From positions 608,279-672,278 of the forward strand of contig NW_004797691.1 of assembly GCF_000002075.1 (NCBI RefSeq): a DNA stretch of 64,000 nucleotides. Reading direction: 5' to 3'. The first letter of the stretch is position 1, and every line of letters starts with the position of its first letter. The position numbers and the translations under genes are program-made. Shown here one piece after another: positions 1 through 59,500 of the stretch. The DNA comes from Aplysia californica (taxonomy: Eukaryota). The notes beneath the pieces were generated by a model. It was not told the origin of the DNA. It made no database searches and worked only from the letters and a program-made list of their open reading frames with translations.

Positions 1-29
1 TATTTAACTTTTCGAATCGAGCCGAACTA

Positions 30-2712: not shown

Positions 2713-2971
2713 GGCCCTATTAACATTAGAAAACAGGCAGGAGGTTTAAAATACATGCACTGTCATTAAGGCACCTCATGGTTTCGTCTGAAATACAAAT
2801 ACTTTAGGTACTGCAAACTAAAAATTTATTTACAGTTCAGTAGGCCTTTTTTATGGTCAATCTAGCCTTCATATTAAGAAAGTACGGCTAGCCTCTTCCT
2901 AGAGGCATACCAAAGTCATTTAAGATTATATATAGGCAGGCGTATCTCGACAACATTGACCAATATAAATA

Positions 2972-3764
2972 CAGTGGAGTCCACTTATAACGAGTCCTGA
3001 AATAGCGAGAAGTCTGTTATAAAGACTCTCTTGTAAAACTTCGTTTTTTTTCCTTTTTTTATCTTTGTATAAAATACTGCTATAACACAATCAGATAGTT
3101 ATAAATATATTGCGGAATATTGCTGCTGCTGTGCACAGCGCATAGGCTATTTATACATGTAAAACCTCGCCTGTTGAGAGACTGAATTGCTGATGATCAA
3201 GCGAAACAAAGAATGGGAGAGCCCATGTGTGCCAACATTGAAGGCCGGAGCAAATGAGTGGGGAGGGTGTGGCAATGCGCAGACAAGCTATTGTGAAGCA
3301 GAGCGCATCGCGTGATAGGCCAGCCTAGTCTAGATTATCTAGGCCTACCATGCGTCTCACTTCTCCGATGCGAGGATGGAGAGGTCACCCTGATGTGTGA
3401 CATGCGCAAGCAGACGGAATGCACCACAGGGTGTGGTGGGGTGGGGGAAAACACAGTGGGCGAGTTAGCCAAGAGAACTCTTTCTGATCGCCAACGCCGA
3501 GCTGTCAACATTACTAATGCTAGAGAAGGAAACCTGATTCGATTTTTGATCAAATAAGACCAAGAGGTCATGTTGGGCAAAATCATCATCAGGGGTGAGA
3601 AAAAAAAAAACCCAAAAATATATGTACAACCAAATTCATACACTAGGCCTACTTTATTATAAATTTCCTTTGAATTTATTACTGGATCCCTTATGTAACA
3701 AGAATCCTGCTATAACTGAAATTTTGTACCAGTCCCCCCCTCTCGTTATAACAGGATTCCACTG
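2972..3764. mobile_element. pogo/Tigger-like (Tc1-mariner) MITE
   Basis: TIRs CAGTGGAGTCCACTTATAACGAG / CTCGTTATAACAGGATTCCACTG, TA on both sides. Confidence 0.85.
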
Positions 3765-4290
3765 TAATCATAAAAACTTTAGTATCCTAGTGTAAAAAAC
3801 TTTGCACTTTCTTGAACGCAAAATTGTCAGATGGAGTCAAGTCAAGCCAAGGCCAAGTGCTAAGCAAGACCAAAAGACTGCAATTAGCTTATTTCAGACA
3901 TTTTGAGGGTGGGTTCTCTTTCTTGGTTTCTTCCACTTCTAATGTTTTTCGGAAGTCTGCACAGTTGTGTGGGCATAATACTATAGGGGGTGCCCATAAA
4001 CGCGATCAGGTCGGGTCGTTTTCTGATGATTTCAGTGCACTCTACAAAACCCCGCCGCGATTGTACCTGACGACGTGGAAGTTAAAGTAGAGAAACATTT
4101 TACTTCAGTGGCTTCAAGTCTAGTGCTCCTTTCCGCCGTTCCCAGTTGCAGTGCTGCGGCAGCCTGGAATCCCATAAAAACATTGGGTTACTTCGATAAC
4201 TTTCTATTATTTTCTTTAAGTGGATGGACTCCATTATTGTTGTCAATTGTTAATGGTATTTCACGCGGAAATGCGCGACCTTGACAGCAC

Positions 4291-13116: not shown

Positions 13117-27367
<14,251 letters not shown>

Positions 27368-36461: not shown

Positions 36462-36978
36462 GGGGGGGCTCTTGTGGTCTAGAGGTTAAAGTGTTCACCT
36501 CTCATTCAATAGGTCCCGGGTTCAAAACCTGACAGTAAAGTAATGGAAAATTTTCTCCTTTCACCTCCTTTTCTGCTCTCTAACCACATTCTGTTGTTGT
36601 CTGCTTTCATTTCCACTTTCTGCCCTGCCCCCCCCTCCCCCCCCCTCTTGCCTCTTCCTCTTTTCTGCCGCCTTTCTACTACTACTCCTTGGATCCTTCT
36701 TCCAGCGGTCTTTCAGCCACACCCCTGATTTTAGTGTAGGTGAGATCTAACACCTAGCCTTCTCGGACAAGGGTGAAAAATCATCAGAGGTCGCGTGTGT
36801 AAGTTGTGCACGTTAAAGATCCCTTGGTGATCCTAATATCAATGAGAGTAGGCTTCGGTGGCCACCTGGGCAAAATTATAAATTAATTCCTACCAAACTG
36901 AAAATGTTTAATGTATCCTGCACGCTCATATGACTTAATGCAGTTGCAGGCGCTGCAAAACACTTACCGGAAAAAAAA
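36462..36978 (+). mobile_element. SINE family B copy
   Basis: Collinear with the other family B copies. Confidence 0.83.
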
Positions 36979-38866: not shown

Positions 38867-40328
38867 TTTAAGTTTCCGCTTCATTTTGTTTAAACATGAA
38901 TAGAGAAAAGGCTGCTCTAAGAAAAAACAGGTATCAAGGAAACAGTAAAAAAAAAAACTCTTTCTTGGCGTTTTTCAGAAAAATCATTTTACAAAGGCAT
39001 GGTGTATTGGTAAACACCGCTGTAGTCATCCTACATTAAAAAAAACAAGTAAAAAACAGATAAGATCATACCCACACCAGTGGTGGTCACCACAGTGCAG
39101 TGTCCTGTTTTAGAGCTAGGACATAAGCTAGAGACCGCGAAATTCACAGAGCTACAGTCAGTCTGACAGTTTCATCGTCTGGAATTAGCAAAGCATATTT
39201 TTCCTTTGACTTACGAAAACAAGCGAATTTGTTGAATGACAAAGAAAATTTGGTTTGATGTGGTCCTGCATCTGGTACTGATAACTGTTTTGACTGCGAG
39301 AGTAGTCTCAAGATCCAACTTCTTCAAATGATGAGTCCACCAATTATCGTAAAACACAATGATAAAATATCGGAGTTCGAAATTGTAGTCTCCTACGGCA
39401 AATTATATTGTCACACTCATAAGATAAACGCCTAGAGGTCATTTTGAGCCATTTTGAAAAAAATTAGAAAAAAACTTTCTTTTAAACAATTGACCCTGTG
39501 AAACACTTGAATTTTGGTACACTCACTTGATTTTATATTTGGATTTTTTTGTCCAAGTGAACTAAATTACCAAGCTAGCTCTGCTCTTCATTTCAGAACC
39601 AAAAACTCCAACTCCAACTAACCAGTCATAAATGACTCCGGCAATTATCTTATGAGCGTAACAATATGAAGCAGTCTTAAACATCCGGCAAATCACTTTT
39701 GATAAAGTGATCGTAAGAGACGAGCTATGCAGCAAGGTGTTTAGTCTACTAAATATATACATGCGCAGTTGTCAACTTTTCAAAAACCGAAAACAGACAC
39801 TAACCAAGCAAGGGGTCAGGGTGGTGGGCATTGGTCAAGTGACCTCCCTCCAACCTTTCACACACACTTTTCTGTATTCAACAGATTCAAGCTATTCAAA
39901 GTTGACCCGCAGAAAATGATTTTTCCAATTGACTATTGGGTTTTGTTCTCATTATTATTCACAAATCTCATCAGAAAATTCATAATTTTTGTTCAGCATA
40001 AACATGTCAGTGAGGAGCAATACTAACTAAAAATATGAATACATATTTTTAAATACAAAAATGCACTCAGAGCCTCAACAATGTAGTAAACACTTTTTTT
40101 TTTAACATACTGATTGGCATCTATGAACATGATTCCAAAAAGATCTTACTAAAACAACCATAACAGGGGAACAGGAAGACTGTTGTAGAGCAAGTATCTT
40201 CACAACTCTGACATCTTAAGAAATTCTACGAAAATTATAAAAAAAAGTAAAGCACTGTCACACAGCTTTTTCTCTCTTTTTTGAGGATTAGTCTTGGTGT
40301 ATGAAATTCTTTACAGTTTGTGTTGGTT

Positions 40329-40403
40329 CTAGCTAGGCATCTCAGGACCTCCATTTTGATAGTTTCCCGTCATCGCTGCATTGCTGAAGTCCATGCCTGG
40401 GTT
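40329..40403 (-). CDS. NUDCD2: NUDCD2 last coding exon (NPGMDFSNAAMTGNYQNGGPEMPS*)
   Basis: ttttccacag| acceptor; TAG at 40331-40329. Confidence 0.93.
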   Translation of the reverse strand, partial: NPGMDFSNAAMTGNYQNGGPEMPS

Positions 40404-43400
40404 CTGTGGAAAAAAAAAGGGACATGTGAGGAAATAACTAATAGGCCCTAATCAAGTTTCATTACAAAATGCTCTTAAGTATTGGTTTTTGAACACCAAC
40501 AACAGGGAAATGACCTTGTCAGAGATCAACTTAACCCTATCCGTACGTCGTGCTTTACTATCGTATCCATACGACATGCGGAACTCTGAGCCCCCCACTT
40601 TCCAAAGAGGAAATTTACTCGTTAATCCGATCTGTACACTTTGCATAGCAGTCTGTCAAAACGATTTTTTGAGAAATACTGAAAGTTTCAAAGAGATCTT
40701 CACAATAGAAGTATTCTAAAATGTGAAGAATACAACCTCTGGGGTACAAAATAACCCCAGGCGTACAGACAGAGTGATGACTCTAGAACAGACAACAATG
40801 ACAGAATATCAAAGATGACAAAGTCAAGACTAATCTCAAGATGAAACAGAAGTATGAAGCAGTGAAGGCATCCGTAAGATCTGGGGAGACACAAAATGAT
40901 GCAAAGAGTGCAGATTTCAACCATTTCCTCGCACTTGCAGAACCCACAAATTCTTTGCATATATTGACCTGACAAGCAACATTTTATGACCAAGACAGCA
41001 AACACACCATCATTTATCATTATGGAATTATGTCTTAGATACTTAGGCAAAGCCATCATGTTGTCTTAGCTTAATAGTAAAGAGGAAAAAAGACATACTA
41101 AAGGTCTCAAGCATTATAAGGAAGACTGGGGAGCCCGAACAATAAGATAAGACAGCAATTTAGTGATCTCTGCACAGATAAATTTGCAGCAGCACGGCAA
41201 ATACAGTGGAGCTCAGATTCAACGAGAGCTTGGATTCAACGAGAGGAGATGGGTTCCCCGTTTTTTTCTCCTTCAGGCACCACTAGTTACTTCACTTTAT
41301 ACATTACTTGCTCAGTGCCAGTAATTATCTACACAAAACCTCATATTGTCATATTTGCTATAACGAACACTCAGATTCAACAAGATTTTAGGTCAGGCCA
41401 GGCGACTTCAATGAATCCGAGTTCCACTGTACACGCATACATACTCATCAACACACACACACGAACACCAATTACACAGACACACACATGAATAGTTATT
41501 GGATGGACACCTAAAATGATGTTATTCTTGCACACTTGTCAATGACTGAAAAATAATGACGGACAAGAAAGAGTTTTCGGGGACATTATACGGAAAGGAA
41601 CATTCACCTTGAAAATGGTAACACACTTTTATTCTGAGCTGCTCAAAACTAAAAGGCAATAAAAACACTAAACACAGGACAAAAAAAACAACTTACAAAG
41701 TCTTTGAAAACATTGAAACTGGTCTAGATTGCATTAGTGATTCAAGGAGCTGGAGCAGAGCTCAGGAGTATTTTAAAAAATAACTAAAAAACAGCCAAAA
41801 ATCACAAACCTCAAACTGAAATCTTTGCAAGGTCAATTTTTTCTGCATTTCGTCAAAGGTGACTGGGTCAGCTCTGTACTGGTCTTTGAGCAAAGAGGGC
41901 CAGCAATGAGCTGCTGTGCTGTGAACTTTACTCAGACAAATCCGTACCATCTTTTTATCTTCTGTGGACAATAATACAGGAATATACATGTATTATACAC
42001 TCTGTATCATAGCATAAGTATGAAAATATAGCATGGATTTAAAACTTTTCTATCAAACTTCAAATACAGACATGAGCGAGAACTTTCTTTCCTAACAGTA
42101 CCTAGCAATAGTGACTTTATCATAGACAAATTAGGACATTTCTTATGCCATAGTCTACATCCCTGGTTACACACAGCGATTTATATAAACCGTATCAGAT
42201 TCATCGCACACAAGAACTGCCACTTTAAGAGAACTGAGTATTCTAAATTCTGTTTACACATTCCAATTTATCATCCAATTCTCTTTTGATTGAGAAAATC
42301 CCTCTTCCTTGCGTCAGATAACTGTTATCTATGACTCTATGCGATGACAGCAATTTGCTTGCTCTCTGTGAGTGTGAGCTTAAAACTTAGCTTATTTGAA
42401 CAGAAGACTAGCTTTTACAGCAAAACATTTTAACTCATACTGTCGTCATCCTACAATTTTCCTAACAACATTTTTTTTAAACATAAAATCCTTCTCGCCC
42501 CTCCCAAAACGGACCTAGATCACACATATTAGCAGAGCCAATGGTTTTTTTTTGTTGCAATAATATGGGGTGAGCCTTCCAGACTTTAACCCCATTCAAA
42601 GAAATATAAAGGCACACACTGAGTTCAACCTCAAAGTGCACACAAGCCACACTTAAGCACTCTAACTAGTCTAGCATAATCAGCCTGAGTTCATGCAAAT
42701 TAAGATCAAGTGCTAAAAGCAGACACAATATGACTTGTTTAAATGATTATATTTGGACTTTTCTGATAAAGCTGTGATAGGTGAACCTGTGGAGTACACA
42801 TGATGTGGAGTGTTCTGTCTCTTGTTTTAATGACTAAAAATGTTTACACATAAATAAATCAATTACTCGCCTAGTGTCCACACAGCATCATCAGCGTGGA
42901 CTGGTTCATACAGATCGCCCTGTGGAAGACAAAAAATGATTTCATTAACATTGTAGGTGTATTACTTCAAAGACGCATGTATATATGTATATATAATATC
43001 AATATAATTATAATTAATTCATCTGATAAGAAGAACAATATGTTGTACTGAAGCTTTTTAAATTATATTAACTCTTAGTTTACGGAAGGCTAATTGCTAC
43101 TCTTCCGTAGGCCCTACGCAGCCAGTTTTGTCAGCCAAGATTTCAGCATCACAAACTTTCTTTGCATAAAACAAACACCGAACTCAGCAAATAAAGACGT
43201 CCTAAGCAGTAAAATACAGTTTGGTTAATGGGAGTGTATACAGACCCGGTAACCGGGAACAAAGTCACAAAGTATACAGACCCGGTAGGGGAACTCTTTT
43301 GTGATTTCAGAAAGTTTCAGCGCCTGTTGGCTCAGGGAAGACCTAGGTTCTTCTAGATCTATGGCCCAGGTCTAGATCTAGATAGACAGACATTATAAAT

Positions 43401-43548
43401 GTAGATTAGATCTAGATCTAAATGAAGATTGCAGATGTCTCTTCGATGAACGATAGTTTTTCCTCCGTTTTGGAGTTGGAGGAATCACAATTTGAAGAAA
43501 AGAACAATGTCATAATTTCAATCGAGCAGTCACCCTCTCTATTTCTCT

Positions 43549-43628
<80 letters not shown>

Positions 43629-46431
43629 ATCACTCGCATTCTCTTTTTCTTTGTTTGTCTCCGTCTTTCTTTCTCTCCACCTATTTCCCACTCTATCTTT
43701 CTCTCGTTCCCTCCTACCAACTCGGGGCATGTTATCACNNNNNNNNNNNNNNNNNNNNNNNNNNNNNNNNNNNNNNNNNNNNNNNNNNNNNNNNNNNNNN
43801 NNNNNNNNNNNNNNNNNNNNNNNNNNNNNNNNNNNNNNNNNNNNNNNNNNNNNNNNNNNNNNNNNNNNNNNNNAAACTTTCCGAAATCACAAAAGAGTTC
43901 CCCTACCGGGTCTGTATACTTCGTGACTTGGTTCCCGGTTACCGGGTCTGTATACACTTCGTTGGTTAATATAGAAAGAATTTGCTGAGGTCTGTTGGAG
44001 TCTTGTTATGACTGCCGTGAGTCCACTGAACTGGCCACTGCTGCGCCATATACAAAGAGTTAAATTATAGTACATCCTTTTCATTGCATAATATCAATGA
44101 CTGCCACATTTAGATGAAAAAAATAAATACCCTGGAGAAAAAAATCCCCCAAAAAAGAGAAAGTCAAAGGAAAGAAGGGCTCAGAGTCATTGATGTAGCT
44201 GAAGATTCCCTGCTAGACAAAATGCAAAAATATTCTTCAAGTTGAAGCACTCAATATCCAATAGAAAAATACTCTAAAAACTAGAAGAAAATACTCAATC
44301 ATAAGCTAAAAAATGTACTGTCTAGCTGGTGGGCTCAGACAGTCCCTTTGAATGTTTTATTTTCTATAGGCATCTAACTATACCTGATAAAACAGCACTA
44401 AAATGCAACAAGATGAAATATTATTAAAAAGTAAAGATCATTTATAAATATGATCGTGTTATAATAATAGTTTATCTATCATAATACATTTTCATATCGA
44501 AGTGACTATTCGGACTCGAGTCCAATTCAAGAAAAATTATATTCGGACTCTGATTCGAATCTGTATGTCGGTTGTCTGTTTTGTTTTTGTAAAGTGTTTT
44601 ACGGCGTTCGCAACTGCATAGGTCATATGAGCGCGCGGGACACACCTAATATTTTCAGTTGGTAGGAAATTTTGAATTTTGCCCGGGTGGCGACCGAAAC
44701 CTACTCTTATCGATTTTAGACCACCAAGGGATCTTTAACGTGTGCAACTTGCACACGGGCCCTCCGAGATTTTTCGCCCTTGTCCGAGAAGGCTAAGTGT
44801 AGATCTTTCCTACCAGAAGATCAGGGGTGTGGCAGAAAGACAGCAGTAAGGAGGGGCCAAGGAGTAGCAGTAGAAAGGCTGCAGAAAGAGTCAGGAGCCC
44901 AGAGGAGGGGGCAAAGGAGGTGAGAGGGTGGGGGCAGAAAGTGGAAATGAAAGCAGACAACAGAACATTGCTAGAGGGCAGGGAAGGAGGTGAAAGGAGA
45001 CAATTTTAGAGAAGAAAATTTTTTGGTCGCTACCCGGATTCGAACCCGGGACCTTTGAATGAGAGGCCAACACCTTAACCTCTAGGCCACGAGAGCCCCC
45101 CACACACACACGAGTCGGTTGTCTGTTATATGCTAAATATTTCCAGCATTTACAAAAATTGTTTCGATTATAATGATAAAAATCGAGACGTGAGCTTTAC
45201 GTAAAGTCCCCAGATGACAGTTATATAATGTAACTTCCTTACACTAGTTACTAAATCTAGCCCGATCTCTAAACTGGTCCTCTCTGCATCTATAGGCCTA
45301 GTAATCTATTTATCATGTTTCAGAACAACCACGTTGAGTTGACCTCGCCAGGGGCAAAGTTAAATAGGTTGACCAATGAGATCATGTATAACCGATCGCG
45401 CATTCTCGGCTAGATGGGGGAAGAGGTATTGGGAAGAGGCCACGGCTGCCAATTTTGTGCAATGTAATTGTTTTTGTTTTTTAATAAATTAATTACAGAA
45501 AAACTATAAACATCAACAAAATGAAATTTTATACTGAAAAGACAAAAGGTGGTGAAAGTAATCAAGATGCTGTTGACTGGTAGTGGTACCCGGGGCTGGT
45601 TGCCACATATATGTCAACTCTTGAGTTGTTGGCTACCATGTCATGTACGTAGACACTGCCGTTGGGTAATGAGAGTGCAGTCTTTTGACTTCTGACACAG
45701 TTACACAAATCTTGTAGGGAATTCTATTTCTAATTATGGTTTTTTTACGTAAAATTAAAAATCCCACGACGACAGTTGTATTACGCAGCCTCCTTATAAC
45801 AACACTCTATAACCCAGTAAGTTAGAAGAAGAGTCTGAATGAATAAAACATTTTTTTCAGACCCAAGTCCAAATAGATAAAAAATCTTATCGGACTGGAG
45901 TCCGATTTGTAGAAGTGGCCTTTTCATACAGTCTTTTTAAAATTTTGACTAGACCCATTATCATAATAGATCTAGGTGTATTTGTTCATCTGAGGGAAAA
46001 TCATTGCTTGAGATAGCTCTCCACAGTCTACGTCAGGCCTATAGTAACACTGATTTTTATTTTGAATTAACAGAGAATTTTTTAAACTTGAACTTTCAGT
46101 TCATGATGAGTCTTTCGCATAAAAATTCATCAGATGAGTATAATTAACAGCTTGCACAAGGTTCACATTGTGAACTGAGGGCGCCATTAAATTGACCCGA
46201 CCCTGCTAATAAGCACCTGGAATTAATTAGAATCCAACCATTTACCTGAAACACTGTTGCTCCTTGAATGGAAAGACTGATGGCTCTCGGTTTGATGTTA
46301 CATTTCACTTCCTTGGCATTCAGTATCTGGTTGCTTGCTACTTCTATAAAGACTTCTTCCATTGTCTGCCACCAGAAGCCCCATTCGGTTTTGCATGGAA
46401 TTACTCCACTTCTTTCATCAAAGTGGGTCAT
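40329..46431 (-). CDS. NUDCD2: NudC domain-containing protein 2 (CS/p23-domain Hsp90 co-chaperone), exons 46431-46246, 42919-42871, 41961-41810, 40403-40329; 153 aa
   Basis: Motifs MTHFDERSGVIPCKTEWGFWWQTMEEVFIEV, VHADDAVWTLEDKKMVRICLSK, CWPSLL..QY.ADP..FDEMQKKLTLQRFQFENPGMDFS.A.MTGNY..GGP match recalled NUDCD2; frame is consistent with one GC-AG intron. Confidence 0.95.
41204..41429. mobile_element. pogo/Tigger-like MITE in NUDCD2 intron 3
   Basis: TIRs CAGTGGAGCTCAGATTCA / TGAATCCGAGTTCCACTG with TA flanks. Confidence 0.8.
41810..41961 (-). CDS. NUDCD2: NUDCD2 coding exon 3 (EDKKMVRICLSK...RFQFE)
   Basis: tccacag| acceptor; GAG|gtttgt donor. Confidence 0.94.
42871..42919 (-). CDS. NUDCD2: NUDCD2 coding exon 2 (GDLYEPVHADDAVWTL)
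   Basis: cttccacag| acceptor; AG|gcgagt GC donor required for frame. Confidence 0.9.
43230..43961. mobile_element. MULE/foldback-like non-autonomous element with ~90-bp TIRs and 9-bp TSD
   Basis: TIRs 43230-43318 and 43874-43961; TTGGTTAAT at 43221-43229 and 43962-43970; internal (CT)n and gap. Confidence 0.85.
43551..43627. repeat. (CT)n(GT)n microsatellite
   Basis: Direct reading. Confidence 0.95.
44581..45113 (-). mobile_element. SINE family B, full-length copy with 14-bp TSD
   Basis: GTCGGTTGTCTGTT at 44567-44580 and 45114-45127 flanks the element. Confidence 0.9.
46246..46431 (-). CDS. NUDCD2: NUDCD2 coding exon 1
   Basis: ATG at 46431; CAG|gtaaat donor. Confidence 0.95.
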
Positions 46432-47481
46432 TCTGCTTTGGCTTTGTGGGATCCTTTTTGTACTCTAAAGACTCAGTGACAATGCCTGGCTTCACTTGGA
46501 TATTATTTATGGTGTCAGTCCCAGGTGAGTGACAGTCTCTCTAGATGAAGACAAACAGTCAAAGTACAAATGAATGGGGGCTACATTAAACTAAAAATGA
46601 ATTACAATCTAGTAGCTTCAGTACTGTCTGCACTTTAAAGTCGTGCAGACAAGACTTGCTTACTAGAACTACAACTGTGTAGCAACTTAACTAGATTTAC
46701 ATACATATCTAGGCTTAGCAGACTGTTGTCAAGACCAAGAAGAGGCGAGAGGAAAAGGACGGAGAAGACTGAGCGAAGTCGAAGTCAATTATACCCATAT
46801 TAACACCCCTTTCATATGGTCTGTCTTTCATTACTCTCAACATTAAAAGCAGCCAAATATTTCATGTATAACGAATCTGAGTATGATGACTGACAATGAC
46901 ATGAAACTTTCCACTTTCCACCCACAGTTACAGGAAAATAAACAATGTGAAACCGAAAGTGCGGATGCCGGGCACTCTTTTCTTTTAGGAGATAAGGAAA
47001 CAAATCTCGAATAAGCCAGGTTGCACTTTCTGTAGTTTGTAGGCCAGAACATTTAGAAATGTGCTCTGATATATTATTACTTTCAGAATTTATAGAATAA
47101 GATCACAATAACAAATATTTTCAAAAATTTACAAAAATATTTTTTTAATCATATTTGTAAAGGTAATGTCTCTAGAAATTCACACAATCATAAAGAGAAT
47201 GAGGAAGATCTAATTTCTTTGGCTTTAGACACCAAGGAAAAACGACACAAACAAAAAGTACGAATATCGATAAAATAAGTACATAGTAATCGAAAATAAG
47301 TTGGAAAAAAATCTGTCAACATGTGTGCCATTGCTTTCACTTTCATGGATTTAATGAAGAGGGAATCTTAAGTCAACTCCCAAAATTGAGGGAGTTTGAT
47401 CTGAACTGACATCTCTGTAATATTCGGTTCTTGACCTTTTTCTTCAAATTTAGAAGTAGGCTAAAGCTGATTGACTTCAAA
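46432..47481. promoter_or_regulatory. Bidirectional promoter / 5'UTR region between NUDCD2 and SDAD1
   Basis: Divergent ATGs 1.05 kb apart; DRE-like TATCGATA at 47265-47272; candidate NUDCD2 5'UTR intron (minus donor near 46663, acceptor 46542-46541). Confidence 0.7.
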
Positions 47482-47580
47482 ATGTCCAGTAAAGCCGTTG
47501 CGAAGTCGGTGCAGTTTGCATCCAACTTGCCACAGCTTCAAAATTTGATGAAACGTGATCCACAGTCATACAAAGATGAG
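47482..47580 (+). CDS. SDAD1: SDAD1 coding exon 1 ([33 protein letters not shown])
   Basis: caaaATG start; GAG|gtatgg donor. Confidence 0.93.
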
Positions 47581-50500
47581 GTATGGTAGATACATAGATC
47601 TAAACTAGATCTAGATCTAGTCTTTGACAACCAGCTAAGTTTAGATCTAAATATGCAGATTAATTGGTGTTGATTTACTTCCACACCAGTCTCATATCCA
47701 GATAGTCAGTAGTGCCATTGTTTGACCATTGCCATGGATGGCTGGAGGAATTGCATTTATTATACTATACGGCATAATACGCTGTGTCTACGTAGCCTCG
47801 GGGTCTACGTACACGGTAACCGTGTACATAGCCTCCTGGTCTACGTACACAGTAACCGGGCAGGTAAGCTAGCCTCAGTGTCTACGTACACGGTACCGGT
47901 AACCGGCAACCGGGCGCGTACGTAGCCTCGGGGTCTACGTACACGGTAACCGGGTGTGTAGTCTCAATGTCACACGCACGGTAACCAGGCGAGTAGATCT
48001 AGCTTCAATATCTACGTACACGGTAACCAGCAACCGGGCGCGTAGCCTCAGTGTCTGCGTACACTGTAACCGGGTATTTTGTTTTGTGGGCGGGCGCTTG
48101 AGCTAGGTGCACGGTAACTGCTTCGCTCCCTTCGTGACCTTGACCCTTTTCTTGTTTCACTCCGCTTTTTATGTTCCAAAACCACGAAAATTATCCCAAT
48201 CTACTCCCCGTCATCTTTCCTAGTTTAGTTTAGTGTTAGCAGAGGTTTTACGGCACTCGCAACTGCATAAGGTCATATGAGCGCCAGAGAATTAGAGGTA
48301 GAGTAACAAACACAAAAAGAAGGAAAAGAAAGATAAGGATGACAGATGTTGAATAGGAAAGTAGGAGCAGACCACACAAGAGTACCCACCAACCACCCAC
48401 TAATACTGTCTTTACACACACCACACTTACAATCACACACAAAAATACATTAACACACACAGAGAGAGAGACAGATTGAGACAGAGAGTGAGAGAATAGA
48501 GAGAGAGGGGGGAAAAGTAAAAGAGATAGAGTGAGAGATGGGAAAAGTAAAAGAGAGAGAGAGGAGAGAGAAAGAAAGAGAGAGAGATAGTGTGGGTGTG
48601 TGTGTGTGAGAGAGAGAGTGAGAGAAGAGAGAGGGGGGGGAGTGAAAGAGGAGAGAAAGAAAGAGAGAGAGAGACAGTGTATGTGTGTGTGTGCATATGT
48701 GTGAGAGAGAGAGGGGGAGGNNNNNNNNNNNNNNNNNNNNNNNNNNNNNNNNNNNNNNNNNNNNNNNNNNNNNNNNNNNNNNNNNNNNNNNNNNNNNNNN
48801 NNNNNNNNNNNNNNNNNNNNNNNNNNNNNNNNNNNNNNNNNNNNNNNNNNNNNNNNNNNNNNNNNNNNNNNNNNNNNNNNNNNNNNNNNNNNNNNNNNNN
48901 NNNNNNNNNNNNNNNNNNNNNNNNNNNNNNNNNNNNNNNNNNNNNNNNNNNNNNNNNNNNNNNNNNNNNNNNNNNNNNNNNNNNNNNNNNNNNNNNNNNN
49001 NNNNNNNNNNNNNNNNNNNNNNNNNNNNNNNNNNNNNNNNNNNNNNNNNNNNNNNNNNNNNNNNNNNNNNNNNNNNNNNNNNNNNNNNNNNNNNNNNNNN
49101 NNNNNNNNNNNNNNNNNNNNNNNNNNNNNNNNNNNNNNNNNNNNNNNNNNNNNNNNNNNNNNNNNNNNNNNNNNNNNNNNNNNNNNNNNNNNNNNNNNNN
49201 NNNNNNNNNNNNNNNNNNNNNNNNNNNNNNNNNNNNNNNNNNNNNNNNNNNNNNNNNNNNNNNNNNNNNNNNNNNNNNNNNNNNNNNNNNNNNNNNNNNN
49301 NNNNNNNNNNNNNNNNNNNNNNNNNNNNNNNNNNNNNNNNNNNNNNNNNNNNNNNNNNNNNNNNNNNNNNNNNNNNNNNNNNNNNNNNNNNNNNNNNNNN
49401 NNNNNNNNNNNNNNNNNNNNNNNNNNNNNNNNNNNNNNNNNNNNNNNNNNNNNNNNNNNNNNNNNNNNNNNNNNNNNNNNNNNNNNNNNNNNNNNNNNNN
49501 NNNNNNNNNNNNNNNNNNNNNNNNNNNNNNNNNNNNNNNNNNNNNNNNNNNNNNNNNNNNAGAGGGGGGGAGGGGAAGTAAAAGAGAGAGAGAGATAGTG
49601 GCTGAGTGAATTATCTCTTGGACCTTCCGGTTACCGTACCCTGAGGCTACGGGCCCGGTTACCGTGTACGTAGACCCCGAGGCTACGTACACGGTTACCT
49701 TGTACGTAGACCCTGAGGCTACGTACACGGTTACCGTGTACGCACTCCGTTTATTATAACAATAACGGAGTGTCTACACGTACACTACACGGCACTCGGT
49801 AACCGGGCACCTAGCCTAGTCTCAGTATCTACGTACATGGTAACCGGGCACCTAGTCTCAGTATCTACGTACACGGTAACCGGGCACCTAGTCTCACCTA
49901 GATTCTAGTTTCAGTATCTACGTACACAGCGGTAACCGGACACAAGTCTAGTCTCAGTCTGAGTATCTACGTAAACGGTATCCGGAATGAAAATAAATCA
50001 ATATATTTGTCCTGTGCTGTCACTTGCTGAAAAAGTCATACAAGCGTTTTTTTGGGCTCGCCATCATGACCGGTCAGTGAACCTGTGCCTGCGCATCACA
50101 TACATTGTGAGTACCGGTTGGTGTCACCAAAGTTCATTCAAAGTCTTCTAAAGCTGTACGCTGCGAAGTATAGGGCTTGGGAATGGGGGGATTACCCCGG
50201 TATTTTTTTTTTTAAGGTACAGTCGGGGGAGTGGTGGGGATGAAGGCAACACCGGATGACAAAAACTAAACTTGGAGTTCTGAACTGCCGGGTTACCGTG
50301 TACGTGACACTGAGACTACATGCCCGTTACCGTGTATATATATATGCCCGGTTACCATGTACGTGACACTGAGACTTGGTGCCCGGTTGCTGGTTTCCGT
50401 GTACGTAGACACTGAGGCTAGGTGCCTGGTTACCGTGTACGTAGACACTCCGATTCCATAATGAGCGACCACTCTCTAACTTCTAAGAAACAGTAGAGAG

Positions 50501-53500
50501 AGGGTTAGGTTATATATCTAGATCTAGATTCTAAGGGTAAGGTTAGGGGTTGGGTCAAGGTTAGGTCTTCTTTATTGTGTTTGTTGGGGTGTTCACTCGT
50601 TGCAGAGCAAGTCCTTCCGCCATGATTGACGGCCAGGCAAACATACTGTATAGCAGCAGGCTAGAACAAGTGTCAACAAGTAGCTTAACAAACTACAAAT
50701 GGCTTGAAGAAACGGCCACTTTCCTTTTCCCCCTTTTTTATATTTTTATGTCCACAATGTAGGCCTGAGCCTAGATCTAGAATAGATCTAGATCGATAGC
50801 CCTTATATAATATAATTCGAAGTGGCTATGCATACGGCTCCCGTACGTATAGCCTTATGGCTATGCGTACGACCCTCCCATACGCATAGCATCGAGGCTA
50901 TGTGTACAGCCCTCCACTTCACATAATAAGCTAGGCTTTGTTACACTTTGTAGGCAGCACATAAACTATCAAACCGGACACTATAAGTGGACAAACTGAA
51001 ACCCTGGAAGCGCGCAGGCCCTTTATAAAGGACATGAGCCGGGCTACCCGGGAAGCATGCAGGCCCTCTATATATACATTATAGGGATGACCTTCTTCGA
51101 TTGGGAAGCGCGGAGCTATAAAGGGCTAAAGACGCTGACCTTTTTTCAATGGAAAATTTCAGCATTCCTTAAATGTGGAAAATGACACAGTAAATTACAG
51201 GTCAAAGTTATAAATAGTGACCAATGATTTTGCAAGTTATCTTGACTTTGTATAGCAATGCCCACCGAGCGCGTTTTGTTCTGCTGATTTGTGGCCCCCG
51301 CAGCGGGGTGTTTCGTGGGACGCACTAACGCAAAGGTTGTTGTCTTCAACTCGCTCTCACGCCGCTTCTCGTGAATGGATATGAATGAAACTTGGCAGCC
51401 AATCAGAAAAGAGGTCAATCTAGTAGTTTGAAGTTTGACAACTTTGTACCCATCAAAGAAGTAGTCGAAAACGTTTGCGAAAGTGGTTGATGTGGTGCGC
51501 TTTGAAGATTTTTCGGAGCTATGATTTGTCAAACTGACTGATACGTTGTACACCATTTTTCTTTATTCCCTTAAAATTTCATGCTTCTGTATTTAGCGGT
51601 TTTCGCGTAATCTTTAAAAATGTGGGAGTAACTAAGGGAAAAAGCGGCATTGCCATATTTGCGCGTGCTGGGTGAACAACCGGCGGCTGGGAAATTTCCA
51701 CTGAGTGACGTCATCAGCCATCGGTCGCCTCGGGCGCTACAAACGAGGCCCCGCTTTTATGTGAACCGGAAAGGGGGGGAAGGATACTTGAAAACTAAAC
51801 GGGGGCTTTGATAACTTGCGTTTTTGTTGCATTTTAGTCACAATACATCAATAGATAGAGTCATTTTTATTTGCTTGATTGCATGACAGAAGAATAGAAA
51901 CAGAAAAGCAAACATCTTGAGAAGTGGTATGGCATTGTGTTTGCGTTATGAAAGCCTATTCCCCCCTCTTTGGAAAGCACACACTTGGACTCATCCTGTG
52001 TGCTCTGTTTGGGAAAGTGAGGCATCAAGATTGTTATTAAAGAGTATGGTACTTATTTAGTCCAGTCTGGGAAGATAGTCCCGTTTATACATTGTTATCG
52101 TTCACGCGTGCGTGCGTGAGTGTACGCGCGTGCATGTGTGTGTGTGTGTGCGTGAGAGAGAGGGAGAGAGAGAGAGAAGGGGAGGGGGTGTAAATATGTT
52201 ACATTTATTGTATGAGTTGTAGCCTACACATGCGAAATATTCCCATGACTTGTGAACTATATTATCTGAACGCATCTTAATCTACCTACCACACAATAGG
52301 ACACTGTCCAACAATGGATATACACAGAGACAATCTTATTTTCTATAACAAAGTATGCATGCTTTTACTAGTAGAGAACTGGATTTATTTGACTAATAAA
52401 TCCAGCTCTCTACTTACATTTTTAGACAAATTGATCCAGAGCATTGCTTGGCAAGGAGGAACCTTTTATGTTGCCAAGTTTCATTCAAATATCTGAAATA
52501 TCATGACTTTGGGAGAACATATGACTGATAATCTTTGTAAATCTGTAAAGAACGCCACTTTTTTACCTATTAATGTCTTTACAACTCAAAAAGAATGACA
52601 GATATTAAAAATCTGACAGCATGACTAGATTCTGCATTAAAAAATGTACTAGACTGCCAAGTTTCATTTACGTATTCCAAGAAATGGGCGAGCTATGACA
52701 AATATTCTCTCAAAACGCACCGAAAACCGCCACATTTTTACCTATAAACGTCTTCATAACTCAAAAAGTAGGATAGCTATGAAAAATCTGAAAGCTGCAC
52801 TAGAAAATGTACTTGGTTGCCAAGTTTCTTTTTAAAAATTTAAATACTCCAAGAAATGAGCGAGTTATGACGATTGTCTCAAAACTCACCAAAGAACGTC
52901 CCATATTTTGGGGTTTTTTCATTATATATATAAAAGTGTACCAAAAATTAATTGATTAAAAAATTTGTAACTTTTTTGTTTATTGATGGATTTCAAAAAT
53001 TCAAAAAGTTCCATGCTCTGTGAAGAAACGGCTACAAAATGCACCTGTTTGCAAACTCTTTCTGGCAAAAAAAGGTTTTTCGTGGTCATTGCTACTTTGT
53101 ATAGCAATGCCTACGGAGCGCGTTTTGTTCTGCCGATTTTTGGCCCCTGCACAGGGGTGTTTCGTGGGACGCACTAACGCAACGGTTGTTGTCTTCAACT
53201 CGCTCTCACGCCGCTTCTCGTGAATGGATATGAATGAAACTTGGCAGCCAATCAGAAAAGAGGTCAATCTAGTAGTATGCAGTTTGACAACTTTGTACCC
53301 ATCCAAGAAGTTGTCGAAAACGTTTGCGAAAGTGGTTGATGTGGTGCGCTTAGAAGATTTATCGGAGCCGTGATTTGTCAAACTGACTGATATGTTGTAC
53401 ACCATTTTTCTTTAAATTCCCTTACAATTTCATGCTTCTGTGTTTAGCGGTTTTGGCATAATCTTTAAAAATGTGGGAGCAACTAAGGGAAAAGCGGCAT

Positions 53501-56500
53501 TGCCATTTGCGCATGCTGGGTGAACGACCGGCGGCTGGGAAATTTCCACTGAGTGACGTCATCAGCCATCGGTCGCCTCGGGCGCTACGAACCAGGCTCC
53601 GCTTATATGTGAACCGGAAAGGGGGGGAAGGATACTTTAAGACTAAATGGGGGCCTTGATAACTTGCATTTGTGTTGCATTTTAGTCACAATACGATAGA
53701 GGTAGTCATTTTTATTTGCTTAATTGAACGTCTTTGCAAACACTTTCTGGCAAAAAAAGGTTTTTCGTGGTCATTGCTACTGTACTTTGTAGAGCGTCTC
53801 TTGGCCAAAGATCGTTTGTAACAAAATAGTTCACTCAGCCAAAAAGGTGTCCGCAGAAGTCCTCACTTTGGTTCAGATGACACTGCAGTCTTTGTTTTGA
53901 AGCTCTCTTTCGCTTCACCAAAAGAAGAATAGGAATAGCCCAGTTTGTTAGTTTCATTTTTATTATATATTTTCACACAAGTAGGGTAACTCTGATAGCA
54001 AAGTCCGCACTTTTTCGAAGAGGGCGCCATCGAATCCTCATGGACACTTCTTAAATTTTTAATTGGCTCAATTTTAGAGGAGTGAACTATCTTGTTATAC
54101 ACGATCTTTGTCTTGGCCAAGATATCGATCGATAAAATTACGCTGTCCGGCTGAGGGATTACCAAGGCCGTGAGTATACTTCTATCTAAATAAATCTAAG
54201 GGCCGTACGCATAGCCACAGGCTATATATAATTTCACTGTGTAAAACAGTCACCTTTCCAACACAGTTGCAGCCACTATTTTATGTACAATGAATGTCAG
54301 AGTCACACCAACCGATAAACTTGACTAAGAACTGACTCAAATCTCTCATCACCCAATGTTTTGTTAAAAAGTATTGGCCTCTGACATTGTGGATGAGCCG
54401 TCGTTATCCAATCACCTATTGCTGTTATTGTCAGGTAGTCCCTCCAACTGATCATGTTGTGTAGGCCCCTCCCACAGTTGACCAATAGGCTAGGTAACAA
54501 TAAATTTTCTGCTACTGATGAGGAAAGAGTATGATCCCTCATAAAACTAGATCTAGATCTAACTGAGCATTTGCCAAAAGGTGGGATACCTGGGTGTGAC
54601 AAATGAGGTCCAAAATCAACTTTATGTAATAATTCTTTAATCACCCATATTATATAGCCTAATGATTGCTCTTTCAGACTCAGTAACTGCCAAAGCTGTA
54701 TATGCAAGGGTCTTGGTGTAATTCTGACTTGAATGACGGAAATAGCAAAAAGTTCATTCATAACAATGATGACACAAATTTATGAATACTCGAAGTTCCT
54801 TTCTTCAGCTAGGCTGATGTTATATTTTGAGACATAGCAAATAACTTCCAAAACTACATAGAATTGACAATTTATAAAAATCTTTATTAATTTTTGATAA
54901 AATTACTTTTTTGTGTCATAATAGTTATGAACGAACAATAAGTGACCAAAATACTATCAATTATATCAAGTTTCATCGACTAGAATTGTCTAAAATAACA
55001 CTCAATTGACTAATTATAGTCAAGTGATAAATGAAAGACCATTAAACAGCTATTTTTAAGCGCAAACTGGTCTTAGGGCATATTATGCATAAATTTAAAG
55101 TTCGTTCATAACCATTATGACACACTGTTTCGTTCATAACTATTATGACAAATTTTACTTTTGGCCCCTAAAATTTACTTATATTGTTCTGTCTTTCACA
55201 TAAAACGTTTTTCATTTATGAGGCTTTCCTTAAAATGATAGATTCCTCTATGTAGGGAGAATTCAAAGTTTATATTTCCTGAAAAACCCTTAGAATACCT
55301 TTAAAATGGTTCGTTCATAACAATTATGACAAACTTCAATTTTGACCTAAAAATTTACTCATTTTGATCTGTCATTCATTTTTTAAAACTTTTATTAAAT
55401 GAAACTCTCCTCATAATATGTATCTCTGTACATGTTTTTAAAGTTTGTTAACACTGAAAAGCCCTCAAAATATATAAAATGGACTATAAATAGTTCGTTC
55501 ATAACCATTACTACAAAAGTATAATACTAATTAAAATCCACACCCATACACTTATGATAAAAATCAAAATATCAGAATGTATGCAAGGTCTATTCTGTCC
55601 TTTAGTTGGGTTAAAATTAAAAATACATCCCAAAACAACTGTAAATTACATGGAATTAGGTTTCGTTCATAACCGTTATGACACACTGTTTCGTTCATAA
55701 CTATTATGACAAATTTTACTTTGGGCCCAAAAAATTAACTTATTGTTCTGTCATTCACATAAAATTGTTTTAATTTATGAGACTCTCCTCAAAATAAGGT
55801 TATATGTTGGAAGAATTCAAAGTTTAATCACTGAAAAACCCTTAGAATACCTTTAATTGTTCGTTCATAACTATTATGACAAACTTCAGTTTTGACCTAA
55901 AAATTAATATTTTGACCTGTCATTTACTTTAAAATTTCATATTAAATGAAAGTTTCCTCATAATATGTATCTGTGTACATGTTTTTAATGTTTATCAACT
56001 CTGTAAAGCCCTCAGAGTACAATATGTAGTTCGTTCATAACCATTACTACAAAAGTAAAATACTAATTAAAATCCAGACCCATACACTTATCATAAAAAT
56101 CAAAATATCAGAATGTAAGCAAGGTCTGATACATCCTCAAGTTGGGTTAAAATTAAAAATACATCCCAAAACAACTGTAAATTACATGGAATAAGGTTTC
56201 GTTCATAACCATTATGACACACTGTCACGTTCATAACATGATGACAATCCATTATGACAAGCATATTTTTGCCTCTCCTTCGCTTCTCTTTTGAGTCATC
56301 AGCACGATACTCTTCCATGTTCATTCCACCATGTAAAAGGATGTTGTGAAACAGTGGGAAGTCCCTCACATGATATTTTGCAGAAATATCATAAAGTGTT
56401 TGTTCATAACATCATTATGACAAACCTGGATTATCTCAATCAAAGTCATATTTAAGCAAAACCATGCGATGGAGCGGAAAATTACCCTTCTGATGGATCA

Positions 56501-59500
56501 ATGTCAAACCAATGTTTAATACCGGTCATTTCCCGGGATGATATGTTTAACGATTTGGGTTTTCTAGACCTTGGAAAGTCTGATGATGTAATTATGACAC
56601 GAGTTATGAACGAACTTATAAATTTTACTCAGCAATAACATCATTAATATAAAAAAATAAAACCCTTTTAATGGACACACGCTGTTATGATGGTGTATAC
56701 AAACTATTTTCAATGTTTGAATGCACTACTGTTTGATAGTTTAAGATTAACAATATTCTGTATTTAACATACAATTACGAGTGCACTCAGGATGAGTAAA
56801 AAATGCCCTATTTTTAGTACTATTATCTTTCTATGTAGAGATATAAGATGCACACATCAATCTACTTGCTCATGCAGCTTGACCAACTTATTTCCTTGCC
56901 ATACGCATAAAGTTTTTAGAAGAAAACATATTTTACCATGAGTAGTGGTTGATTAAAAAAGTCCTCATGCAAACACCCCCACCTTTTGGCAAAAGCTCAA
57001 CTAGACCTGCCACTCATCCTGATTTAATTGGGATTATTTATATGAGTCAGATTTTTTTTCCCCCAAATCTGGTGTCTAGCATCTTGTCGATTTTCCCTAT
57101 TTCGATTGCGTATCCCGATTTTTTTGTTCCTTCTGTTGCCCTAGATTTTTCAGAAACCTACATTCTTTCTCTGTAGCAGGAAGCACCCGTTGAACTTTTT
57201 GTCTGCAGGAAACTCTGATTATTTTATTTTCCTAAAAATAAATATCTTTTGTTGGATCTTTGCTCGCACGTGTTATTTCCACAACAGTCGAACCTGCCTT
57301 TTTACGGAGACATGTGTAAGACGGAAACCTGTCTTAACGGAATCTCCCTGCTCCCCCTTGATATTTCTCTGTAATTACCTCTATGAGACTAAAACCTGTC
57401 CGACTCGGAAACGGAAAGAAAAAGCCGCTCCTTCCAAGGGTTTTACCTGTCTCAGATGGGAAAGAAATGCTTTGCCCGCTCAGCCCTGATTTAAAACAAA
57501 ACTCACAAGTTTGGTTCCACTTCCTCTAAACTTAACGTCATGCTGCCAGGCGAGGAAGGGGAGTAGGGGTGCACTTTGGGGGTAGATTAAGGACCTTACT
57601 TTATAGTTATAACCTCCTTGGGGTAGATGTTACCCCATCTCTTAGTGAGCCCTGAGCGATGCAATTGATCAGGGTGGTGTGGGTTTGAAATCTCATGAGT
57701 ACCAGTGAAAGTGGCCGAGTAGCGAGCCATCTCAGAATCTTTCCTGGATAGCCAGAAGCCAGAGGTGTGAGATTAGTTTGACCAATGCCTGCCTCCTTGA
57801 TCGTACAGCCAGCCGAGAAAAGAGTTCCTCGAATCGTTGTTGCATGGCAGTGAGGGATGGCATTGGTTGACTGCTATTACACCGATGGGTAGGACTAAAG
57901 GTAGAATCAAAGCATTCAAATGTTTACTGTTTTTAATAGATCAGATGGTGGTCCTATGTAACAATGCAAAAGCGCTGGTGGTAATTGGATAGTAAGACTG
58001 ACGCATGTCATTATCACAGAGACTAGCAGTTGAGAGGTGTGAAGTTTTGATCACTGCTTGCAGACCGGACAAGCGACCTTTGATACCACCGGCTGGGCCT
58101 TTGAAATCTCCCTCCTTCTCCTCCATAAATCCCCTAAGGCAGAATTTTTTTCGGGCTCCCTTGCAATCTGTCTTACACAGGTTCGACTATAGATAGATAT
58201 TATAAATAGGTTGTATTGATTTGATATTCCCCACTTACGACATTCTCAAGATCTAGATCTACTTTCGCTTTGTTACCACTCAGAGAAAATTCTCCAATGA
58301 TGGCCAGATAAAGTCTGCTACTGTAACATTAACAATTTGCTACATGATACAAATGATTGATATTATAATTCATAGTTCTCTCTCTCCCTCTCTCTCTCTC
58401 TCGTTTCAATGTAAATGCTCTTTTTTTTCCAGTTTCTAAAACAGTGGCAGTATTTTCACACCCTGATGCAAGCTTTTCAGCTACAGCCTACAAAGTACAA
58501 TGAAAAATTGGATGAAATGATCAGCTTTGTCGCACAGGTTAGTAAACTTTAAGACCTCTATTAATAGCCGTAGATGTATTTGTACCCATCAGCGTAGTGT
58601 GGTTATTTTTCTTAAATTTTAGGTCTTTTCGGAGATATACTGCTTGGGTCCTGCTCCTCAGTGCCATGTTTAAGGGCACATGAGAAGTACATGTATAGCC
58701 TTTAGATTTTAAGAAGGCGACCTTTTGATTTTAAGAAGATGACTACTTACGAAAAGAACAGGAAATATATCATGAATAACAACAAAATCCAAACATTTTC
58801 ACTTTTAAGGATGAGCTTGGCTCCACTTGTTTTCCTTTGCTCTGCTGTCATTTAAAAAAGTATAGTATATTTATAAATGCTGTTTTCAAAATTTTGCAGG
58901 AGAACCGAATGAATGTTATTACAAATATAAAACAAGATTTACTTTTTAAAAGATAATAAGTAAGTTATTATCAAAATTGTATTTTTTTTTAATATTGATT
59001 TCGGATGTTTGCGCAGTTTGTTTTCTTGGTAGTAACACAATATTGTTTTTTTGACTCTCCTGTAATATTATAAAAACTTATATTAACTGTATTTTTTAAA
59101 TGACGGCACAGCTTTACCACCTAGTTTCGAGCTAGTCGAATTTGACTATTTTTCAAGAGAGGCATTTATATGAGTGATATGGGCATGATTATGAATGGAA
59201 TGTGTGTGTATATAATGGGAGGGGGGGGGGGAGAGATAAAGGAGAGCATAAAAAAGAATAATTAATGATTAATACTTCAAATTTTTAATTTGCATATTCA
59301 AGTGGCTCAAAATGTTTATAAACTGTCATGGTACTACCATTTGTGCGATTTGATCAAGAATACAAAAGTTGTTAACAAACACTGTTGGAAATGAACTAAT
59401 ATGCCTTTAGACTGAAATTTAATGTGTACTTCAGGAAAATGATGTTATTAGTGCACTCCTTTTTTTTTGCATATTTGAGCATTACAAGTGTGATAGTTTT

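What the first reader, a model, noticed from the sequence alone, without database searches (positions are those of the whole stretch)
47590..53790. TA-x-TA insertions in single repeat copies: a catalogue of probable transposon excision footprints
Seen in sequence: where sister copies of a repeat have a plain TA, single copies carry a short insertion that duplicates it. Examples in the minisatellite units are TAGATCTA (47994-48001), TACCGGTA (47894-47901), TAGCCTA (49812-49818) and TAGATTCTA (49899-49907). TACTGTA (53778-53784) corresponds to a plain TA in the sister copy at 53093. Established knowledge: TA-targeting Tc1/mariner elements leave TA plus 2-4 terminal nucleotides plus TA on excision, and TACTGTA/TACAGTA is the footprint expected from CAG..CTG-ended elements like the MITEs here. 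Inference: the other motifs are footprints of families ending GA..TC, G(G)..C(C) and CC..GG, so several cut-and-paste families repeatedly visited this intron.
Basis: partly seen in the sequence, partly recalled or inferred. Interest (0 to 1): 0.7.

Follow-up and report, generated by a model that had tools for sequence, protein, structure and literature searches.

The report
Jumping-gene scars at TA sites
In this animal genome a plain TA has repeatedly become a short fixed palindrome such as TAGATCTA or TAGGCCTA, likely the scar of a jumping gene that landed and left; two of the five listed sites fit, two look like copying slips, one is unresolved, and the element behind the commonest scar was not found.

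Summary
All five motifs are at the stated coordinates, in intron 1 of an SDA1 homolog. Four lie in subterminal 36-bp repeats of two MITE-like elements, and the fifth at the end of a 7-bp-TSD element. Genome-wide pattern searches of that repeat found the same non-templated inserts (GATC, GATTC, GGCC, GCC) at 14 loci on other contigs, at three different TAs and never at non-TA positions. TAGATCTA and TAGGCCTA are 15-16-fold enriched in 0.99 Mb of sampled DNA. The process is therefore real, and most likely Tc1/mariner/pogo excision that keeps both element ends. Per site: TAGATCTA (47994) and TAGATTCTA (49899) fit. TAGCCTA (49812) is an exact tandem duplication. TACCGGTA (47894) is one base from a 7-bp duplication seen elsewhere. 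TACTGTA (53778) is unresolved. GG-ended (pogo) and CA-ended TA elements exist. No GA-ended donor was found, and the commonest Tc1 and mariner families found leave no matching enrichment. Each scar type has its own target context. The scan noted this pattern before, in this genome and another. Verdict: new variant of a known kind.

The parts
47482..47580 (+). First coding exon of an SDA1 homolog; the finding lies in its first intron
   Evidence: Translation followed by GT donor; match to human SDA1 homolog 8fl2_NT, E=0.00052; later SDA1-like exons read by eye
47595..47619 (.). (TAGATC)n tract just after the donor site, same motif class
47780..49749 (.). MITE-like element A with inverted subterminal arrays of a ~36-bp unit (contains the N run 48721-49560)
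   Evidence: Inverted arrays; ends matching the family terminus (C)GGAGTGT
47865..47871 (+).
   Evidence: 41 of 49 rows carry this variant or its decay forms (my count)
47894..47901 (+). TACCGGTA: likely slippage (7-bp GGTAACC duplication minus one A)
   Evidence: Exact 7-bp duplication at 3 other loci and one near-exact; CCGG only in the window; 1 edit from a tandem duplication
47994..48001 (+). TAGATCTA: likely footprint of the GATC class
   Evidence: 13 of 13 sister units plain TA; GATC at the same TA on 3 other contigs; 2 edits from any tandem duplication
49766..50452 (.). MITE-like element B of the same family
   Evidence: Ends CGGAGTGT...ACACTCCG; exact 9-bp TSD read in sister copy L110
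49812..49818 (+). TAGCCTA: exact 5-bp tandem duplication CCTAG; slippage at least as likely as a footprint
   Evidence: 0 edits from a duplication, which only 3 of 64 possible inserts achieve; only the window has it
49899..49907 (+). TAGATTCTA: likely footprint of the GATC class (+1 base form)
   Evidence: Same insert in this repeat on contigs C630 and C796; caveat: 1 edit from a 6-bp duplication
51253..53094 (.).
   Evidence: 15 of 26 other full copies have an exact 7-bp TSD and 3 more have one mismatch
53102..53779 (.). Second, internally deleted copy of the same element, in tandem
53778..53784 (+). TACTGTA: extra CTGTA between the element end and the third TSD copy (53785-53791); unresolved (CAG/CTG footprint, TACT slip, or damaged extra TSD)
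2970..3766 (.). TA-flanked CAGT...ACTG MITE, a possible donor type for CA/CAG scars
41202..41431 (.). Second TA-flanked CAGT...ACTG MITE

Best explanation
Plain TA sites in this genome have repeatedly gained the same few inserts (TA-GATC-TA, TA-GATTC-TA, TA-GGCC-TA, TA-GCC-TA), which are likely scars left when TA-targeting cut-and-paste transposons of the Tc1/mariner/pogo kind excise and the host joins the break while keeping about two bases of each element end. Shown: the inserts, their recurrence at several TAs on many contigs, their absence from non-TA positions in the repeat tested, and family-specific contexts (GATC type mostly C-TA or TA-G; GGCC type G-TA; CATG type A-TA). Inferred: insertion with TA duplication, cleavage 2-3 nt inside the element, end-joining that keeps both overhangs (sometimes with one extra base), and separate GA-, GG- and CA-ended donors. 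Also inferred: a GATC scar creates the C-TA and TA-G contexts its own donor prefers, so re-insertion plus slippage would build the (TAGATC)n tracts. In the window this applies to 47994 and 49899; 47894 and probably 49812 are slippage; 53778 is open.
For: Pattern searches of the 36-bp repeat: 7 of 14 rows at one TA are GATC x3, GGCC x2, GATTC x2. 7 of 30 position-agnostic 5-7-bp insertions in a second stretch are GGCC x3, GCC x2, GATC x2, all at a TA. Together these are 14 loci outside the window at three TAs (my count). Clean inserts in single copies of other repeats: TAGGCCTA at L016:2560, L052:2567 and L102:1770, and TACATGTA at L175:8957, each 2-3 edits from any tandem duplication. TA-x-TA form in 10 of 41 non-tandem insertions versus 1 of 26 deletions (Fisher p=0.04). 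Of the 15 palindromic TA-NNNN-TA words other than TATATATA, four stand out: GATC 16.2x, GGCC 15.0x, CCGG 4.4x, CATG 3.4x. Mixed adjacent GATC+GGCC scars occur 8 times, which slippage cannot make. Donors with matching ends exist: TA|GGG...CCC|TA pogo-type elements (L286, L287; 596-aa ORF) and TA|CAG...CTG|TA elements (L276, L319, MITEs). Footprints of 2-4 terminal nucleotides are established (PMC6943129, passages). TACATGTA is quoted as a rare Tc1 footprint (PMC3520976, passage).
Against: No GA-ended TA-flanked element was found in about 2 Mb of held DNA, among 30 DDE_3 loci, 30 DDE_1 loci, 20 extra DDE_3 regions or 2 mariner copies, although GATC is the commonest scar. The most common Tc1 family among the hits (TA|AACT ends, 26 of 30 loci) and the mariner family (TA|CGAG ends) leave no matching enrichment (TAAATTTA 1.0x, TACGCGTA 0.3x; CpG decay may hide the latter). 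The canonical one-end forms are weak (TACAGTA 178 versus 132 expected, TAGGTA 1.2x), whereas in Tc1 and Sleeping Beauty they dominate. Some recurrences may be one event copied with the MITE. Only 2 of 48 in-repeat TAGATCTA were scored as insertions, one of them poorly aligned. With margins held fixed, a few low-count non-TA frames reach ratios as high as the TA frame. No filled allele of any scar was seen.
Confidence: 0.62

Rival explanations
1. An element-free process writes the palindromes: a host or domesticated nuclease makes a staggered cut at TA, and a repair polymerase or a transposase-like enzyme adds or integrates a fixed 4-5-bp piece.
For: The dominant GATC class has no donor in the DNA examined. 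Scar frequencies do not follow the abundance of transposase families. The +1 forms with central A or T are enriched in all three classes (GA 3.8x, GG 5.8x, CA 2.1x), which points to a repair signature.
Against: GGCC and CATG inserts are not templated by their flanks. GG- and CA-ended TA elements exist. Each class has its own symmetric target context, as a dimeric transposase would give. No such host system is known to me.
Confidence: 0.22
2. All motifs are replication slippage (short tandem duplication) plus point mutation in TA-rich repeats, and TAGATC is simply a microsatellite.
For: Exact for 49812; 1 edit for 47894, 49899 and 53778. Most insertions in this repeat are duplications. 111 of 228 TAGATCTA sites adjoin a related motif.
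Against: The same GATC and GGCC words appear at different TAs with different flanks. Inserts at L016, L052 and L175 are 3 edits from any duplication. Mixed GATC+GGCC neighbours exist.
Confidence: 0.1
3. The palindromes are selected regulatory words (transcription-factor or nucleosome-linker motifs) near promoters, built up by substitution.
For: They cluster near first exons in the window (35 GA-type motifs in 1-4000, none in 4001-40000, 17 in 40001-60000). Teleost hypomethylated domains carry linker 6-mers of unknown function (PMC5607494, passages). TACATGTA was read as a binding site in Phytophthora (PMC3520976, passage).
Against: They arise as one-step insertions inside non-autonomous element copies. 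The link to CpG content is weak in the genome sample (rho 0.09 for GATC, none for GGCC). Selection could shape retention but not origin.
Confidence: 0.06

Closest known systems
Tc1/mariner excision footprints (C. elegans Tc1; Sleeping Beauty; ZB)
   Same: TA duplicated around 2-5 extra bases; TA-specific; CA-type word TACATGTA quoted as a rare Tc1 footprint (PMC3520976, passage); 2-4 terminal nucleotides (PMC6943129 and PMC7913693, passages).
   Different: Here the both-end palindromic 6-bp insert dominates, whereas Tc1 leaves mostly TACATA or TATGTA (10.1101/2025.10.09.681459, passages) and Sleeping Beauty TACAGTA or TACTGTA. The commonest words need GA and GG ends; the GA donor was not found. 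Density is about 230 TAGATCTA per Mb.
pogo/Tigger-type (DDE_1, PF03184) elements with TA|GGG...CCC|TA ends in this genome
   Same: TA target and GG ends that would give TAGGCCTA (2+2) and TAGGGCCTA/TAGGCCCTA (3+2; 5.1x enriched).
   Different: Few copies seen (L284, L286, L287, L292); their own flanks (A-TA-T, A-TA-A, x-TA-C) do not show the G-TA preference of the scars; no excision shown.
Promoter-enriched short words of teleost hypomethylated domains (PMC5607494)
   Same: Short TA-containing words enriched in accessible promoter DNA with no explained origin (passages).
   Different: That paper treats them as nucleosome-positioning sequence and, in the passages read, does not propose a transposon origin; I did not see its 6-mer table (supplement not read).

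Membership tests
Tc1/mariner/pogo excision footprint | Empty homologous site has a single TA; insert is flanked by a duplicated TA | tested here: met
   47994: 13 of 13 sister units plain TA; 49899 and genome-wide cases
Tc1/mariner/pogo excision footprint | Insert is TA-specific and not templated by the flanks | tested here: met
   Stereotyped words only at TA among 30 + 5 + 49 position-agnostic rows; 2-3 edits from duplication for GGCC and CATG cases. Not met for 49812 and 47894.
Tc1/mariner/pogo excision footprint | A TA-targeting element with matching ends exists: GG and CA classes | tested here: met
   TA|GGG pogo-type L286, L287; TA|CAG elements L276, L319 and window MITEs
Tc1/mariner/pogo excision footprint | A TA-targeting element with matching ends exists: GA class (the two best window sites) | tested here: inconclusive
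   None in about 2 Mb of 927 Mb, nor among the transposase loci fetched; the sample is too small to exclude one
Tc1/mariner/pogo excision footprint | A TA-targeting element with matching ends exists: CC class (47894) | tested here: inconclusive
   Only a single weak CCG-ended candidate (L303:4839-5817), not confirmed as a family end
Tc1/mariner/pogo excision footprint | Filled, scarred and empty alleles at one locus | tested here: inconclusive
   Contig lays were swamped by repeat contigs and did not show the letters of the 9-base gap in the one long contig of another sample
Tc1/mariner/pogo excision footprint | Transposase produces the scar in an excision assay | not testable with these tools
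   Needs a bench assay
Zator (TAG target; features recalled) | Obligate TAG duplication | tested here: not met
   45 of 117 isolated TAGATCTA and 54 of 63 isolated TAGGCCTA have neither C before nor G after
ISL2EU / PHIS | AT target duplication, GG ends (PMC4482050, passages) | tested here: not met
   The duplicated dinucleotide here is TA
Flank-hairpin (hAT-type, P-nucleotide) footprint | Palindrome copied from the flanking target | tested here: not met
   GGCC at A-TA-C and G-TA-C sites is not in the flanks; GATC at C-TA-G alone could be read either way

The most novel reading that the evidence does not exclude
An unidentified GA-ended TA-targeting transposon, or a host enzyme doing the same job, has written on the order of 200,000 TAGATCTA scars into this genome, concentrated in promoter-proximal DNA. 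Each scar creates the C-TA and TA-G context that the enzyme prefers, so the scars seed their own tandem arrays. Abundant unexplained TA-framed promoter palindromes in other animals and oomycetes would be fossils of the same kind of process.
Probability: 0.35. Interest if true: 0.75.

Novelty: new variant of a known kind. Interest (0 to 1): 0.5.

Why it matters
If right, cut-and-paste elements that leave almost no copies can still be a main source of short insertions and of the commonest non-microsatellite words in an animal genome. Palindromic words near promoters that are usually read as binding sites (as TACATGTA was in Phytophthora) could be mutational scars, and scar spectra would record extinct transposon families and germline chromatin access. 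The high-copy 36-bp repeat gives a ready test bed, because every TA in it can be scored genome-wide. The five listed sites are minor in themselves.

Tried and rejected
Population polymorphism: the look-up of sequencing runs and two lays of contigs, on window 1-20000 and 560-2060 rather than on the finding itself. One long contig of another sample spans 610-1275 with 9 gap letters, but the tables were filled by repeat contigs, so no TA versus TA-x-TA allele could be read. Donor search: TA-flanked inverted repeats, repeat-boundary catalogues (the outputs of 30, 45 and 58 were cut, and the GA, GG, CA, CC and CG rows were reprinted), and Pfam searches PF13358, PF03184 and PF01359. A planned look at 20 more DDE_1 loci with long flanks was not done, so many pogo-type families remain unexamined. 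A young family with TAGGCC...GGCCTA ends (L232; at least 40 copies) looked like a GGCC donor but has an 8-bp TSD in the one copy read, so it was rejected. The 520-bp repeat at 44572-45107 was tested as a MITE and is SINE-like, with a variable TSD and a TTTG tail. A GAT-ended 3-nt-overhang model was considered because TAGATATCTA is 8.3x enriched, but all 10 sites are in C-before or G-after contexts and +A/T forms occur in all three classes, so the third base is not determined. Paper searches that found no genome-scale footprint account: footprint+TACATGTA+transposon, excision footprint+TA dinucleotide+genome-wide+short insertions+mariner, TAGGCCTA (30 of 283 listed), transposon footprints+promoters and others, six-term Tc1/CATG search (none), TAGATC+gastropod (15 of 17 listed), hATw+7-bp (none). 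Most subscription papers are not in that library.
Full report
Observation. All five motifs and the plain TA at 53093 are at the given coordinates. The region is the first intron of an SDA1 homolog: 47482-47580 translates to a peptide that matches human SDA1 (E=0.00052) and is followed by GT. The window lies in a 927-Mb genome, G000.

What the repeats are. The 'minisatellite' is the subterminal ~36-bp repeat of two MITE-like elements, 47780-49749 and 49766-50452, whose arrays face each other. Sister copies end in (C)GGAGTGT, and one shows an exact 9-bp TSD (L110). The pair at 53093 and 53778 are the right ends of a 1,842-bp element TAGCAATG...CATTGCTA (51253-53094) and of an internally deleted tandem copy (53102-53779). 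15 of 26 other full copies have an exact 7-bp TSD and 3 more have one mismatch. In the window the TSD CTTTGTA occurs three times, and the extra CTGTA lies between the second element's end and the third TSD.

Why the form alone is weak. The unit has five TAs, and 12 of 28, 19 of 32, 13 of 22 and 17 of 23 possible exact duplications of 4, 5, 6 and 7 bp can be written TA-x-TA. The window arrays also carry unlisted insertions. TAAGCTA at 47865 is an inherited variant seen in 41 of 49 genome-wide rows (my count).

Genome-wide test in the same repeat. At the TA of 49812, 49899 and 47994, 14 loci have a 4-5-base insert: GATC x3, GGCC x2, GATTC x2, and 7 duplication-like rows. A position-agnostic search for 5-7-bp insertions in another 9-bp stretch gave 30 rows: GGCC x3, GCC x2 and GATC x2, all at a TA; CCGG once (the window); the GGTAACC duplication exact x3 and near-exact x1; and 18 other duplications or degenerate units. 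A third stretch gave 5 rows, none stereotyped. The same words therefore recur at 14 other loci and three TAs, and not at non-TA positions. All 7 GGCC/GCC inserts follow G; 6 of 7 GATC/GATTC inserts follow C (my count). Some recurrences could be inherited with a MITE copy; this was not tested.

Other repeats. In an all-against-all comparison of 1.6 Mb, 10 of 41 non-tandem insertions of 4-9 bp had TA-x-TA form versus 1 of 26 deletions (p=0.04). Simple-sequence contexts, N-containing rows and duplicates were dropped first (145 insertions to 129, 64 deletions to 63). Clean cases are TAGGCCTA (L016:2560, L052:2567, L102:1770), TACATGTA (L175:8957) and TAGGCTA (L032:4495), 2-3 edits from any duplication. 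Against this, only 2 of 48 in-repeat TAGATCTA, and 0 of 18 TACTGTA/TACAGTA, scored as insertions.

Word counts. In 120 stretches of 10 kb taken at fixed offsets in contigs C1-C111 (989,835 non-N bases), TAGATCTA is 16.2x, TAGGCCTA 15.0x, TACCGGTA 4.4x and TACATGTA 3.4x an order-2 Markov expectation. The other 11 non-TATA palindromes lie at 0.3-2.2x. Forms with one extra central A or T are enriched in each class (3.8x, 5.8x, 2.1x), as is TAGGGCCTA (5.1x). Contexts differ by class: base before is C in 36% (GATC), G in 53% (GGCC) and A in 48% (CATG). Adjacent pairs are GATC+GATC 37 and GATC+GGCC 8. Extrapolating 228 sites against about 14 expected gives roughly 200,000 excess TAGATCTA genome-wide (inference). 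In the window the GA-type motifs number 35 in the first 4 kb, none in 4-40 kb where CpG is mostly depleted, and 17 in 40-60 kb. In the sample the CpG link is weak (rho 0.09). A control with fixed margins gave the TA frame 2.4-3.4x, matched by a few low-count frames. Contigs from two samples span the TAGATC-rich stretch near 610-1290, so the tracts are not an assembly artefact.

Donors. TA-flanked elements found: CAG ends (pogo-type L276, Tc1-type L319, MITEs including window 2970-3766 and 41202-41431), GGG ends (pogo-type L286 and L287, 596-aa ORF; a related end in L158 and L191), AAC and CAC ends (Tc1; 26 and 2 of 30 loci), GTG/CTG ends, and a CGA-ended mariner. GG and CA scars thus have possible donors. 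No GA-ended element was found, and the AAC- and CGA-ended families leave no matching both-end enrichment. A TAGGCC-ended family has an 8-bp TSD and was rejected.

Verdict per site. 47994: likely footprint (13 of 13 sister units plain TA); caveat: its partner in the 130-bp higher-order repeat carries the TAAGCTA variant, two edits away. 49899: likely footprint (same insert on C630 and C796), though one edit from a 6-bp duplication. 49812: exact CCTAG duplication, unique to the window, in the wrong context for the GCC class; slippage at least as likely. 47894: slippage. 53778: unresolved; CAG-ended donors exist, but a TACT slip or a damaged extra TSD is as short, and TACAGTA is only 178 versus 132 expected.

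Mechanism. Established: Tc1/mariner transposases cut the non-transferred strand a few bases inside the element, and end-joining leaves 2-4 terminal nucleotides between two TAs (PMC6943129, passages; PMC7913693, passages). Tc1 leaves mostly TACATA or TATGTA (10.1101/2025.10.09.681459, passages) and rarely TACATGTA (PMC3520976, passage). Inferred here: repair in this animal's germline tends to keep both overhangs, giving palindromes, and separate GA-, GG- and CA-ended families account for the three contexts. A GATC scar creates C-TA and TA-G, the context its class favours, which would explain why it forms arrays (117 of 228 isolated) more than GGCC (63 of 86) or CATG (80 of 86). Confidence 0.62; element-free writing 0.22; slippage for everything 0.10; selection 0.06.

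Comparison and novelty. It works like Tc1/mariner footprints. Membership is met for site form and TA specificity and for the existence of GG and CA donors, and is inconclusive for the GA class and for allelic proof. Zator (features recalled), ISL2EU (PMC4482050, passages) and flank-hairpin footprints fail their tests. Seven paper searches (the last for the side question of the 7-bp TSD) showed no genome-scale account in their listings. The scan itself reached a similar reading on another piece of this genome and in another genome. I had formed my reading before those look-ups and took two paper leads from them. Interest 0.5.

Noticed in passing
window 51246-53791: Non-autonomous TIR family TAGCAATG...CATTGCTA with an unusual 7-bp TSD; here two copies sit in tandem with three TSD copies, as from double insertion at one target. 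A link to hATw-type elements is recalled only; a paper search found nothing.
   Followed up: partly
window 238-2405: Dense (TAGATC/TAGAATC/TAGATTC)n tracts around a likely first coding exon (993-1040 followed by GTAAGT, read by eye); 35 motifs in the first 4 kb.
   Followed up: partly
L232:7134-8280 (G000:C73): Young family (at least 40 copies, 94-99% alike) with TAGGCC...GGCCTA ends and an 8-bp TSD in this copy; hAT-like.
   Followed up: partly
L286:388-3423, L284, L287, L292: Recent pogo-type element with GGG ends, TA TSD, subterminal repeats and an intact 596-aa ORF.
   Followed up: partly
L301:2698-4995 and L302:2618-4928: 2.3-kb TA-flanked elements whose DDE_3 match spans about 195 codons for about 135 model positions, so possibly a long-spacer IS630-Tc1-mariner group.
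   Followed up: no
window 43233-43958: MITE with 85-bp inverted arms (96%) built of a related GGTAACC-type subterminal repeat.
   Followed up: no
window 25251-25772, 36463-36979, 44572-45107, 60902-61437: Four copies of a young ~520-bp SINE-like repeat with variable TSD and TTTG tail (7,441 candidates genome-wide).
   Followed up: partly
window 20219-20757 and 55088-56247: A 21/42-bp degenerate tandem array and a ~550-bp duplicated block with ~170-bp subrepeats.
   Followed up: no
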